A program made the position numbers and the translations under genes. Of a DNA stretch of 64,000 nt, positions 2,425 to 49,941 are shown in pieces. The stretch is from Octopus vulgaris. Taxonomy: Eukaryota. The notes beneath the pieces are model-generated. The model saw only the letters and a list, made by a program, of their open reading frames with translations. It had not been told where the DNA came from and did no database searches. Each line of letters begins with the position of its first letter. Position 1 is the stretch's first letter. Location of the stretch: assembly GCA_951406725.2 (NCBI GenBank), contig OX597817.1, forward strand, positions 114,018,001-114,082,000. The letters run 5' to 3'.

Positions 2425-2745
2425 AACACTAGCAAGTTCACCATGTAATATGCAAGACAAAAGCAAAGACTACTCAACTGAGAGAGAGAGGAGTATAGAG
2501 GGAGCTGGCTTTTTGCCAGGTGATTAGAGGTTAAGCTATGATAGAGAGACAGAAACTGGTGTCTTGTTGTAGTGGAGATACATAGTTACCCTAGTCAGAA
2601 GAGAAAGAAAGGGTATGGTGGTGAAGATGTGCCAGGGCATACCCTCAAGGTACAAAAAGGTGAATGTAAGTGGAGTGGTAAAAAGAATTGGGAGGTTAGG
2701 GGAGAAAAATGTTTGTGTGGGGGATTCATTGAGTGGTAGTTGTGA

Positions 2746-3193
2746 TACCTGTGCCGGTGGCACATAAAAAGCACCATCCAAACGTGGCCATTGCCAGCGC
2801 CACCTTGACTGGCTTCTGTGCCGGTGGCACATAAAAAGCACCATCCGAATGTGGCCGATGCCAGCGCCGCCTTGACTGGCTTCTGTGCCGGTGGCACGTA
2901 AAAAGCACCATCCGAACATGGCCGATGCCAGCACCGCCTTGGCTGGCTTCCGTGCCGGTGGCACGTTAAAAGCACCAACCGATCGTGGCCGATGCCAGAC
3001 TCCCCTGGCACGTAAAAAGCACCCACTACACTCGCGGAGTGGTTGGTGTTAGGAAGGGCATCCAGCTGTAGAAACGCTGCCAGATCAGACTGGAGCCTGG
3101 TGCAGCTCCTGGCTTCCCAGACCCCAGTCGAACCGTCCAACCCATGCTGGTGCGGAAAACGGCTGTTAAACGATGATGATGATGATGATGATG
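2746..3193 (+). mobile_element. RTE-clade LINE 3' UTR fragment with ~63-bp tandem units and (GAT)n tail
   Basis: Four full units plus a partial GTGCCGGTGGCAC(A/G)TAAAAAGCACC unit, then GGAAGGGCATCCAGC and (GAT)n; the same UTR follows the RT C-terminus at 28416-29507 and 32676-33444. Confidence 0.88.
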
Positions 3194-3499
3194 AACATGG
3201 GTGTATAGGAGAGCAGCAGGATAGCAATTATACAATTGGTGGGATAAGAGCAGGTGAGAGAGAGATGATAAAGCAACATTGGGAGCAGGGGATGAGAAAG
3301 AGAGAGTAGTGAATAATGAGATGTAATTTGGTTGATTGGCAGCAGTGGGGAGAAGATTAATGTAGCATGTGGTGGAAATTTGCTGGAAATTAGTTTTCTT
3401 TAGCAACTACCAAAAAACATTCATGACTGGGCTACACTTTTCAGTTAAGTCGTGTTCATGAAGTAGGTGTGTTGTTTTCCCAACAGCTGCTGTTGATGT

Positions 3500-23619: not shown

Positions 23620-23670
23620 CATACATGTTTATATGCAAACATATAAAAATGCATATATACATATATATAA

Positions 23671-24002
23671 GTGAAGGTGACTAGCTCAGTAGTTAGCACA
23701 TCAGGCTTACAATTGTGAGGCTGTGAGTTTGATTCTGGGACTGAACTATGTGTTGCATTCTTGAGCAAGACACTTTATTTCACTTTGCTCCAGTTCACTC
23801 AGCTGTAAAAATGAGTTGCAACATTGCTGGTGCCAAGCTGCATTAGCCTTTGCCTTTCCCTTGGATAACATCAGTGGCATGGAAAGGGGAGCCTGGTATG
23901 CATGGATGACTGCTGGCTTTCCACAGAACAACCTTATCTGGACTTATGTCTCCGAGAGGAACTTTCTAGGTGCAATCCCATGGTTATTCATGACTGAAGG
24001 GT
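23671..24002 (+). mobile_element. tRNA-head SINE family D
   Basis: TAGCTCAGTAGTTAG head, GAGTTTGATTC B-box-like, CTTGAGCAAGACACTTTATTTCAC domain; copies at 25055-25380(-), 41870-42210(+), 56234-56570(-). Confidence 0.85.
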
Positions 24003-28415: not shown

Positions 28416-29507
28416 TCATCATCATCCTCATCATTATTTTTAACGTCCGCTTTCCATGCTGGCATGGGTTGGACGGTTTGACTGAGGACTGGTGAGCCAG
28501 AAAGCTGCACCAGGCTCCAATCTGATCTGGCAAAGTTTCTACAGCTGGATGCCCTTTCTGATGTCAACCATTCCGAGTGTAGTGGGTGTTTTATGTGCCA
28601 CTGGCATGAGGACCAGTCAGGCTCAAAAGGTGTTTTTTATGTGCCACCTGCACAGGAACCAGTCTGGCAGCACTGGCAATGACCATGTTCGAATGTTGTT
28701 TTTGATGTGCCAGTAAGGCGACACTGGCAATGACCATGCTTGAATGGTGCTTTTTATATGCCACCGGCATGGGAGCCAGTCGGTGGCCCTGGCAACAGTC
28801 ATGCTCAGATGGTGCTTTTAACGTTCCACTGGCATGAGTGCCAATCAGGCGGTACTGTCATCGGTCACATCAGCGATTTTGATTTCATTAGCCTCAACAG
28901 GTCTTTGCAAACAAAGTTTATTGTCCAATGAATGAAGGGTACTCATAAGTGGGCTGGTTATACACTACTGGCAGAGATCACTGGTTATGGTCTCACTTGG
29001 CTTGTTGGGTCTTCTCAAGCACAGCATATCTCCAAAGGTCTCTGTCACTAGTCATTGCTTCGGTGAGGCCCAATGTTCGAAGGTCGTGCTTCACCACTTC
29101 ATTCCAGGTCTTCCTGGGTCTTCCTCTTCCACAAGTTCCCTCAACTGCTAGGGTGTGACACTTTTTCACCCAGCTGTCCTCATCCATTCGCAACATATGA
29201 CCATATCAGCACAATCATCTCTCTTGCACACCACATCTGATGCTTCTTAAGTCCAACTTTTCTCTCAGGGCGCTTACACTCTATCGTGTATGCTCACTGA
29301 CATTACATATCTAACGGAGCACACTGGCTTCATTCCTTGCAAGCTTAAGCATGTCCTAAGCAGTAATGGCCCATGTTTCACTGGCTGTTCATACACATGC
29401 ATCATACAGTCTACCTTTTACTCTGAGCGAGAGGCCCTTTGTCACCAGCAGAGGCAGGAGCTCTCTGAACTTTGCCCAGGCTATTCTTATTCTAGCAGCT
29501 ACACTGT
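28416..29507 (-). mobile_element. RTE-clade LINE, 5'-truncated (RT C-terminal region, 3' UTR, (GAT)n tail)
   Basis: Coding relic followed by the repeat-array UTR and ATG/GAT tail. Confidence 0.92.
28993..29507 (-). pseudogene. RTE ORF C-terminal fragment
   Basis: VAARIRIAWAKFRELLPLLVTKGLSLRVKGRLYDACV*...SETWA...YGHMLRMDEDSWVKKCHTLAVEGTCGRGRPRKTWNEVVKHDL...DRDLWR; in-frame stops. Confidence 0.92.
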
Positions 29508-32244: not shown

Positions 32245-32274
<30 letters not shown>

Positions 32275-32488
32275 TCTGCAAAGTGGTTGGTGTTAGGAAG
32301 GGCATCCAGCTGTAAAATCCCTGCCAAAACAGACACAGTAGTCTAGGGTAGTTTTTCTACGTGGCCAGCTCCTGTCATCCATCCTACCCATACATGCATG
32401 GAAAATGGATGTTAAACAATGAGGATATATATAGGAACAAGTTAAAGATAATGGTCATTACATATAATTCCTTTATTGAAGCAAATTT

Positions 32489-32675: not shown

Positions 32676-33379
32676 ACCTCACTTGAAGCACGACCTTCGA
32701 ACTGAAGCACGACCTTCGAACTTTAGGTCTCACTGAGGAAATGACTAGAGACCGAGTCCTCTGGAAGTGTGCTGTGCGCGAGAAGACCCGGCAGGACAAG
32801 TGAGTCCATAACCCGTGGCCTTCTACATGGGATGGAGCCAGCCTATGTATGCATACCTTCACTTCTTGGGACACAAAACTCTACTTGTGAAGACCTGTTG
32901 AGGCAAGTGAGGATCAGAATCGAAATCGATCAATGGAAATTGCAGATGTGTTACCAGTGCCGGTGGCATGTCGAAACTCTACTTGTGAAGACCCGTTGAG
33001 GCAAGTGAGGATCAGAATCGAAATCGATCAATGGAAATTGCAGATGTGTTACCAGTGCCGGTGGCATGTAAGAGAACCTTCCGTTTCGCGACCGTTGCCA
33101 GCACTGCCCCGTTTCCGTGTCCGTTGCCAGCCTCGCCTGGCCCTCGTGCCGGTGGCACATAAAAAGCACCATCCGTTCGTGGCCGTTTGCCAGCTCTGTC
33201 TGGCACCTGTGCGGGTGGCACGTAAAAAGCACCCACTACACTCTCGGAGTGGTTGGTGTTAGGAAGGGCATCCAGCCGTAGAAACACTGCCAGATTTGAC
33301 TGGGCCTGATGAAGCCTTCTGGCTTCACAGACCAGTAGAACGTCCAACCCATGCTAGCATGGAAAACGGACGCTAAACA

Positions 33380-33444
<65 letters not shown>
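32676..33444 (+). mobile_element. RTE LINE 3' fragment, apparently young
   Basis: KHDLRTLGLTEEMTRDRVLWKCAVREKTRQDK* then UTR with repeat units and a pure (GAT)n tail of about 21 units; CpGs largely retained. Confidence 0.92.
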
Positions 33445-49586: not shown

Positions 49587-49941
49587 AATCCAATTTGATG
49601 ACTGGCATCTGTGCTAGTGGAGCGCTAAGAGCACCATCCGAATGTGTTCATTGTCAGAGCAGCTAACTGGCTTCTATGCTGGTGGCATGTAAAACACACC
49701 ATTCAAGCGTGATCGTTACCAGCGTCACCTTACTGGCACTTATGCCGGTGGCATGTGAAAAAATATTCGAGCAAGATCGTTGCCAGTGCCACTAGACTGG
49801 CTCCTGTGCAGGTGGCATGTAAAAAACACCATTTGAGCATTGTCGTTGCCAGTACCGCCTGACTGGCCCTTGTGCTGGTGGCATGTAAAAGCACCTACTA
49901 CACTCTTAGCGTGGTTGGCGTTAGGAAGAACATCCAGCTCT
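49587..49941 (+). mobile_element. RTE LINE 3' UTR fragment (different subfamily), five repeat units
   Basis: Units such as ATGCTGGTGGCATGTAAAACACACC, then GTTGGCGTTAGGAAGAACATCCAGC. Confidence 0.85.

What the first reader, a model, noticed from the sequence alone, without database searches (positions are those of the whole stretch)
2746..3030. RTE LINE 3' UTR is a tandem array of compact H-type pseudoknot-like modules
Seen: every ~63-nt unit contains YGUGC-N-GGUG-GCACR-UAAAAAG-CACC. This can fold as stem 1 YGUGC/GCACR, a 1-nt loop, stem 2 GGUG/CACC and an A-rich loop 3. Each unit also has a hairpin GCCAG...CUGGC. The module is retained in other, diverged RTE copies (28580-28840 minus, 33055-33234, 49610-49898) while linkers and unit number differ. 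The single predicted unpaired base is found as C, A, U and G. Established: this geometry matches small H-type pseudoknots such as luteoviral frameshift elements, and LINE 3' UTRs carry RT-recognition structures. Inference: a multimerised RNA-structure array used for nuclease protection, RT loading or translation control. I do not know of a description of this in RTE elements.
Basis: partly seen in the sequence, partly recalled or inferred. Interest (0 to 1): 0.72.

Follow-up and report, generated by a model that had tools for sequence, protein, structure and literature searches.

The report
Relocated RNA knot in octopus retrotransposon
The tail of a very common jumping gene, likely from an octopus, carries tandem copies of a short RNA module that related elements in other animals keep in front of their gene; the module is predicted to fold as a tiny knot and likely serves as a movable grip for the element's own protein, while the extra copies are probably copying slips.

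Summary
The period is 67 nt. Four modules are complete; a fifth has lost its first 15 nt. The stretch is the 5'-truncated 3' end of an RTE LINE. Its cassette (module, hairpin, second pseudoknot-like domain) follows the ORF in 20 of 20 full-length elements and is absent from their 5' UTRs. The second domain precedes the ORF in 4 RTEs from metagenomes; one has the whole cassette with two compensatory stem-1 changes. So the cassette was likely moved.

For the pseudoknot register: the one-base loop varies freely while GGUG and CACC stay nearly fixed. Against: stem 2 shows no two-sided change, and covariation does not beat shuffles. The array looks like a by-product: duplication units of 27 to about 190 nt, unstable copy number, broken inner units.

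New here: 5' truncation points cluster at the stem-1 5' edge (13 of 45, p about 0.003). A neighbouring hairpin shows similar clustering, so this does not prove nuclease blocking. Seven literature searches found no description. Earlier notes of this scan reported the module on other DNA.

The parts
2736..3194 (+). 5'-truncated 3' end of an RTE LINE (family A here), from the junction to the (GAT)n tail
   Evidence: relatives continue upstream into spacer and RTE ORF (L002, L004, L005); match begins at 2736-2738
2750..2775 (+). module 1: predicted H-type pseudoknot (stem 1 5 bp, 1-nt loop, stem 2 GGUG/CACC, A-rich loop)
   Evidence: fold predicted only
2793..2813 (+). hairpin 2 (GCCAG/CUGGC) of unit 1; repeats at 2860-2880, 2927-2947 and 2993-3010
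   Evidence: sequence; folding
2817..2842 (+). module 2
2884..2909 (+). module 3
2951..2976 (+). module 4 (one change in the A-rich loop, shared by the family)
3007..3023 (+). remnant of the last module; 5' strands of both stems lost by a 15-nt deletion
   Evidence: against L005 and L007
3029..3041 (+). hairpin 3 (CACUC/GAGUG) between the last module and the terminal domain
3042..3081 (+). terminal domain, a second pseudoknot-compatible module (GUUGG/CCAGC and GGCA/UGCC); found directly before the ORF in RTEs of other animals
3135..3194 (+). 3' tail shared with other families, ending in (GAT)n at 3172-3194
28435..29400 (-). older RTE copy (family B) with broken ORF end and degenerate array
32686..33444 (+). 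young RTE copy (family C, 98% to relatives) with ORF end, 98-nt duplication and two modules
49590..49940 (+). older truncated array copy whose 3' tail is missing

Best explanation
This is the 3' UTR of an RTE LINE in which a cassette likely taken from an RTE 5' UTR (small module, hairpin, second module) now sits behind the ORF; the module is predicted to fold as a compact H-type pseudoknot, likely acts as a position-independent grip by which the element's newly made protein picks out its RNA, and the tandem copies are likely by-products of slippage. Shown: RTE identity, position of the cassette, absence from these elements' 5' UTRs, presence in 5' UTRs of other RTEs, the pattern of variation, unstable unit number. 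Inferred: the move (about 0.85), the pseudoknot fold (about 0.65), the array as by-product (about 0.65), protein or ribonucleoprotein recognition as the selected function (about 0.45).
For: Relocation: 20 of 20 full-length elements carry the cassette after the ORF and none in its own 5' region. 4 of 121 metagenome loci have an endonuclease ORF directly downstream of the terminal domain, and L251 has the full cassette in the same order and spacing. Fold: in 332 last modules the loop base is C 120, A 81, U 73, G 58, while the G it would pair with in a plain 6-bp hairpin is 321 of 332 and the GGUG and CACC positions are 79-99% fixed. Stem 1 changes on both sides without CpG: A-U outer pair in family D, C-G to U.G to U-A in family F, two A-U pairs in L251. 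A G-to-C change at the junction moves that base's partner from stem 1 to stem 2 in older families. A geometry descriptor gives 4 hits in 31 kb upstream of the metagenome domains against a shuffle mean of 0.02. By-product: duplication units of 27, 61-67, 98, 100 and about 160-190 nt; one old family has a single module; 16 copies with identical tails span 543-795 nt; 7 of 21 recurrent inner types have non-CpG breaks in stem 2 or the stem-1 core, against 1 of 9 last types, which re-pairs. Function by analogy: R2Tg protein binds a small 3' UTR pseudoknot to start reverse transcription (PMC12222951 passages); non-coding RTE derivatives keep a 5' UTR piece (PMC5786205).
Against: Stem 2 has 0 pairs with a two-sided change among 17 representatives, and no whole-structure measure clearly beats shuffles (29 to 355 of 500). 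ViennaRNA, which cannot score pseudoknots, prefers the plain hairpin (-7.8 against -5.2 kcal/mol for stem 1 alone), inter-unit duplexes, and a long hairpin that uses the last CACC. The outer stem-1 pair is mismatched in several families and stem 1 is only 3 bp in one. The last module is deleted in this copy and in 9 of the first 11 loci (selected by likeness to this copy). The inner-versus-last contrast is small in raw counts (stem 2 intact 465 of 737 against 243 of 332; stem-1 core 581 of 737 against 266 of 332) and types are not independent. Only one non-octopus locus has the full cassette, and its 3' end was not seen. No binding data exist.
Confidence: 0.45

Rival explanations
1. Only plain hairpins form; CACC is kept by descent or by pairing elsewhere, and the array is an ordinary LINE-borne minisatellite.
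For: No two-sided change in stem 2; covariation within shuffles. Stem 1 alone carries the covariation signal (8 of 500 for the hairpin-only structure). Predicted folds favour hairpins and duplexes.
Against: The sixth pair of the plain hairpin is broken by A or G in 139 of 332 last modules while its partner G stays. GGUG would be a free loop yet is nearly fixed, also in L251 where stem 1 has changed. Different-letter modules of the same geometry occur in RTE 5' UTRs.
Confidence: 0.2
2. Each module blocks 5'-to-3' exonucleases, as viral xrRNAs do, so that 3' fragments survive and are inserted as short copies that begin at a module.
For: 5' ends of copies chosen by their tail only fall at -3 to +4 of the stem-1 start in 13 of 45 cases (5.7 expected, p 0.003; 12 of 40 after dropping rearranged ones), with the window fixed beforehand from a first set (8 of 29, post hoc). 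A review says the R2 ribozyme's double pseudoknot protects against 5' exonucleases (PMC13708176 passage).
Against: p is only about 0.03 when conditioned on the first two letters. The 5' edge of hairpin 2 is enriched too (11 of 45, p 0.02, post hoc). The module's 5' edge is also the 3' edge of hairpin 2, so a reverse-transcriptase pause or cDNA fold-back fits equally. Many ends lie at or inside stem 1. No Rfam match. The two windows set before one search were not significant (6 of 29, 5 of 29).
Confidence: 0.12
3. The cassette binds the small ribosomal subunit: it starts translation when in the 5' UTR and, after the move, tethers the RNA's 3' end to ribosomes making the element's protein.
For: In 4 of 4 RTEs with the ORF downstream, the first in-frame ATG lies 8-15 nt after the terminal domain. 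One old octopus family has ATG at a similar distance in 9 of 14 copies scored.
Against: The spacing may be shared ancestry. The ATG is rare elsewhere (2 of 11 in another old family; 7 of 115 in a mixed set). No ORF follows in the 3' UTR. No test of ribosome binding was possible.
Confidence: 0.13
4. The array itself is selected: more modules give more binding or stability.
For: Four separate duplication types include a whole module, one of them the module alone (27 nt). One intact young family carries 10-18 modules.
Against: Other young intact families have 2-3 sound modules; duplications also copy half or broken modules; unit number differs among copies with identical tails.
Confidence: 0.1

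Closest known systems
Bipartite RTE derivatives and RTE 5'-UTR pieces in SINEs (Kojima 2018, PMC5786205; Kojima 2020, PMC7245038)
   Same: A piece of RTE 5' UTR joined to an RTE 3' tail and moved between elements.
   Different: Here an autonomous, ORF-bearing lineage carries the piece behind its ORF and lacks it in front. My motifs for the terminal domain and the module had 0 hits in the text of the 2018 supplement, so identity with the Ceph/RTE domain is not shown. The word pseudoknot occurs 0 times in either main text.
R2Tg 3' UTR pseudoknot (PMC12222951)
   Same: Small pseudoknot in the 3' UTR of a non-LTR retrotransposon; proposed role as protein grip.
   Different: R2 is another clade; its element is single, forms the last 67 nt and is shown by structure. 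Ours lies roughly 100-170 nt before the tail, is repeated and is untested.
Luteoviral -1 frameshift pseudoknots (recalled, no call)
   Same: 5-bp stem 1, short stem 2, A-rich crossing loop.
   Different: Not in a reading frame, no slippery heptamer upstream, loop base free rather than a conserved C.
Viral xrRNAs (recalled, no call)
   Same: Tandem pseudoknot-type modules in a 3' UTR; 5' ends gather near the module edge.
   Different: About 26 nt, much smaller; no Rfam match; clustering is shared with a plain hairpin.
RTE-2_OV of octopus brain (PMC9115989)
   Same: Octopus RTE with one ORF of endonuclease, reverse transcriptase and zinc finger.
   Different: Described with a 3' UTR made mostly of microsatellite; no module described in the passages seen. 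Identity with these families was not tested.

Membership tests
RTE-clade LINE | Single ORF with AP endonuclease and reverse transcriptase | tested here: met
   1043-aa ORF with PF03372 and PF00078; 20 long elements
RTE-clade LINE | Short-repeat tail and 5' truncation | tested here: met
   (GAT)n at 3172-3194; truncations
RTE-clade LINE | Placement in the RTE clade by an RT tree | not tested
   Assigned from ORF layout, tail and a C-terminal motif recalled as RTE-type; no tree was built
H-type pseudoknot | Two crossing stems possible with short loops | tested here: met
H-type pseudoknot | Compensatory change in both stems | tested here: inconclusive
   stem 1: 2 pairs, more; stem 2: none
H-type pseudoknot | Fold shown by probing or structure | not testable with these tools
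   needs bench work
Luteoviral-type frameshift element | Slippery heptamer upstream inside an ORF | tested here: not met
   modules lie after the stop codon; no such heptamer before them
Luteoviral-type frameshift element | Conserved C in loop 1 (recalled) | tested here: not met
   C 120, A 81, U 73, G 58
xrRNA | Match to a described family | tested here: not met
   Rfam: 0 at gathering score; two chance hits at E 1.8 and 3.5
xrRNA | 5' ends accumulate just upstream of the fold | tested here: inconclusive
   13 of 45 at -3 to +4, but also at hairpin 2
Self-cleaving ribozyme of LINE 5' ends | Match to HDV-like, twister or hammerhead models | tested here: not met
Kojima's conserved RTE 5'-UTR domain (3' half of Ceph) | Sequence likeness to the published domain | tested here: inconclusive
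   0 hits for four short motifs in the supplement text; figure alignments could not be seen
RTE 5'-UTR-derived module (general) | Homolog directly upstream of an RTE ORF | tested here: met
   L251, L292, L323, L333

The most novel reading that the evidence does not exclude
RTE LINEs and their SINEs share an undescribed class of minimal A-loop pseudoknots that works from either end of the RNA: in front of the ORF it places the ribosome on the start codon, and behind the ORF or in a SINE it holds the RNA at the ribosome or protein so that the new reverse transcriptase takes it. One octopus lineage swapped its 5' end for a promoter with an intron, moved the cassette to the 3' end and multiplied it, and the folds leave a footprint in where copies are cut short.
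Probability: 0.2. Interest if true: 0.8.

Novelty: new variant of a known kind. Interest (0 to 1): 0.52.

Why it matters
Which RNA features an RTE protein recognises did not come up in my seven searches, yet RTE proteins with their own 5' and 3' UTRs are being used as gene-insertion tools, with UTRs tuned by screening (PMC13708176 passages). A natural case in which a 5' UTR cassette sits at the 3' end of intact elements names a 26-nt candidate and a 40-nt neighbour for direct test. It may also explain why non-coding RTE derivatives keep a piece of 5' UTR. The truncation pattern offers a genomic read-out of RNA or cDNA folding during insertion.

Tried and rejected
Rfam and tRNA scans: nothing. 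Viral contigs: 0 matches for the terminal pattern. One tail search of the own genome returned nothing because common words are skipped. Sequencing runs: no RNA holder listed. Contigs of four runs coded as four organisms all hold the element but cannot show RNA ends. The 3' end of the L251 element could not be obtained, so whether it also has the cassette at 3' is open. A reverse-transcriptase roadblock at stem 2 was rejected: ends are not enriched at or just behind it (5 of 29; 4 of 45 at +15 to +25). A hammerhead in the tail was considered because one family has CUGAUGA; the needed GAAA after the next stem is absent (motif recalled). A SINE origin for this copy was rejected because relatives run into an RTE ORF. 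An ancestral start codon behind the terminal domain is weak. Look-ups in earlier findings by sequence and by truncation words gave nothing. Supplements of papers other than PMC5786205 were not opened, and its figures could not be seen; Repbase or Dfam entries may already list these repeats.

Full report
1. Observation. TRF gives period 67. A fifth module at 3007-3023 lacks the 5' strands of both stems (intact in L005 and L007). A hairpin GCCAG/CUGGC follows modules 1-4. After the array come a small hairpin (3029-3041), a terminal domain (3042-3081) and a tail ending in (GAT)n. Rfam and ARAGORN find nothing.

2. Identity. The genome is 2.8 Gb in 227 contigs; an octopus is my inference from size and repeat content. 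Relatives of this copy run upstream through a spacer into an ORF end, as does the minus-strand copy near 29,000. A full-length relative encodes 1043 aa with endonuclease and reverse-transcriptase domains. The RTE label rests on layout, tail and a recalled C-terminal motif; no tree was built. The family is abundant: 6766 first-look candidates (a lower bound) and 34 terminal-domain hits in 600 kb of regions picked without regard to content.

3. Origin. In 4 of them an RTE-like endonuclease ORF follows directly, with the first in-frame ATG 8-15 nt after the domain. L251 has module, hairpin and domain in the same order and spacing as the octopus 3' end. L333 has one and L323 three tandem modules of similar geometry but different letters in the 5' UTR; their homology to the octopus module rests on position and the A-rich loop only. 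Most other loci are non-coding elements. Of 150 own-genome matches to the L251 endonuclease I took 20 in full: all 20 have the cassette after the ORF and none in its own 5' region; hits upstream in L384 belong to a separate copy with its own tail, and one in L382 lies over 1 kb away. These 20 are close relatives, so other lineages may differ. Inference: the cassette was moved from a 5' UTR, likely through a bipartite derivative of the kind described in PMC5786205 (passages, section 19 and supplement searches seen) and PMC7245038 (passages seen). My motifs were not found in the 2018 supplement text. The lead to these papers and the wording of a move came from earlier scan notes; the tests are mine.

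4. Is it a pseudoknot? In a pool of 474 elements, mostly search-selected, I found 1069 units, 332 of them last in their array; the finder misses heavily degenerate and deleted units. In last units the loop base is C 120, A 81, U 73, G 58, while the G that would close a plain 6-bp hairpin with it is 321 of 332 and GGUG and CACC are 79-99% fixed per position. Stem 1 shows non-CpG two-sided changes in family D, family F and L251. In older families a G-to-C change at the junction shortens stem 1 and lengthens stem 2. Against this: on 17 hand-picked representatives 90.6% of cells pair, but stem 2 has no two-sided change and the covariation score is reached by 55 of 500 shuffles; the hairpin-only structure scores 8 of 500. 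One degenerate spacer unit of family B has A-U at the outer stem-2 pair (4 elements), half of it explicable by CpG decay. Energy models without pseudoknots prefer the plain hairpin, inter-unit duplexes and a long terminal hairpin. My estimate for the pseudoknot is about 0.65.

5. Is the array the functional unit? One old family has a single module; another has 27-nt module-only tandems. Others duplicate 61-67, 98, 100 or about 160-190 nt, in part with half or broken modules. Among 32 unit types seen in 4 or more elements, 7 of 21 mainly inner types have non-CpG breaks in stem 2 or the stem-1 core, against 1 of 9 mainly last types, which re-pairs one step over; 2 types are ties (my count; types are not independent). 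Sixteen copies with identical tails and a complete UTR span 543-795 nt. Against selection on the last module: it is deleted in this copy, in 9 of the first 11 loci (selected by likeness) and in some copies of other families. The array is best read as slippage, with at least one sound module near the terminal domain.

6. Truncation points. First set: 52 truncated copies at 86% identity or more; 20 were dropped as artefacts, poorly referenced old families, locus edges or ends outside the array, leaving 32, of which 29 end in arrays. Two windows set beforehand were not significant (6 of 29; 5 of 29); a cluster at -3 to +4 of the stem-1 start (8 of 29) was seen afterwards. Second set: 90 loci found with tail-only queries; 30 with an RT motif upstream served as references and were not scored; of 60 scored, 46 end in arrays, 8 behind and 6 before. 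After dropping one spacer end and moving one end by hand to -4, 13 of 45 fall in the fixed window (5.7 expected, p 0.003; strict set 12 of 40); conditioned on the first one or two letters p is 0.004 and 0.03. The 5' edge of hairpin 2 is enriched as well (11 of 45, p 0.02, post hoc), and ends are not enriched at stem 2. So stems appear to matter during insertion, but exonuclease stall, enzyme pause at hairpin 2 and cDNA fold-back are not separated.

7. Mechanism. The cassette is kept at either end of the RNA and in non-coding elements, which argues against a promoter, frameshift or start-codon role as the reason for keeping it here (inference). Recognition by the element's protein is my best guess, by analogy with R2Tg (PMC12222951, abstract and passages seen). 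A ribosome-binding role fits the ATG spacing and remains open.

8. Literature. Searches showed no paper on a pseudoknot or such an array in an RTE UTR. Passages only were seen of PMC13282606, PMC4758252, PMC9115989 and PMC13708176; other papers were seen as search listings only. Most subscription journals, Repbase and Dfam were not searchable. Statements on luteoviral pseudoknots, xrRNAs and hammerhead motifs are recalled.

9. Verdict. A real, constrained RNA module in a relocated cassette, likely a small pseudoknot, with an unproven function. New variant of a known kind; interest 0.52.

Noticed in passing
window 23670-23830 +: A tRNA-headed SINE carries a module of the same geometry with different letters at 23791-23816 (5-bp stem, 1-nt loop, ACUC/GAGU, A-rich loop), found by the descriptor.
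   Followed up: partly
L380-L399, about 1150-1290: 18 of 20 full-length elements have a pyrimidine tract and splice-acceptor-like site just before the endonuclease codons, and CCGGAAG boxes further up; a new promoter and intron may have replaced the old 5' UTR.
   Followed up: no
L490-L509 and L191-L220, just behind the last module: In old families the stretch that is hairpin 3 in young ones can be drawn as a third mini-pseudoknot (CAGU/ACUG and CAC/GUG).
   Followed up: no
L221-L341: Many metagenome loci are short non-coding elements in which the partner for the terminal domain's GGCA lies upstream (UGCC near the element's 5' end) rather than downstream.
   Followed up: no
L430-L459: A very young family: 40 of 40 scored hits were 100% identical over 135 nt, all on one contig; many full-length ORFs of about 1040 aa exist.
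   Followed up: partly
L355-L376, inside the ORF: A loose look-alike of the terminal-domain motif lies within the coding region of one family; probably chance.
   Followed up: no
window 32274-32430, 22280, 50488, 60434 (+); 24466, 45116 (-): Further terminal-domain copies of older families or SINEs, some without the module.
   Followed up: partly
L400-L489 5' junctions: Many copies sit directly behind (TA)n microsatellites, suggesting a target preference.
   Followed up: no
L381 ORF residues 783-826: A weak PHD-finger match below the Pfam cut-off lies just after the RT domain.
   Followed up: no
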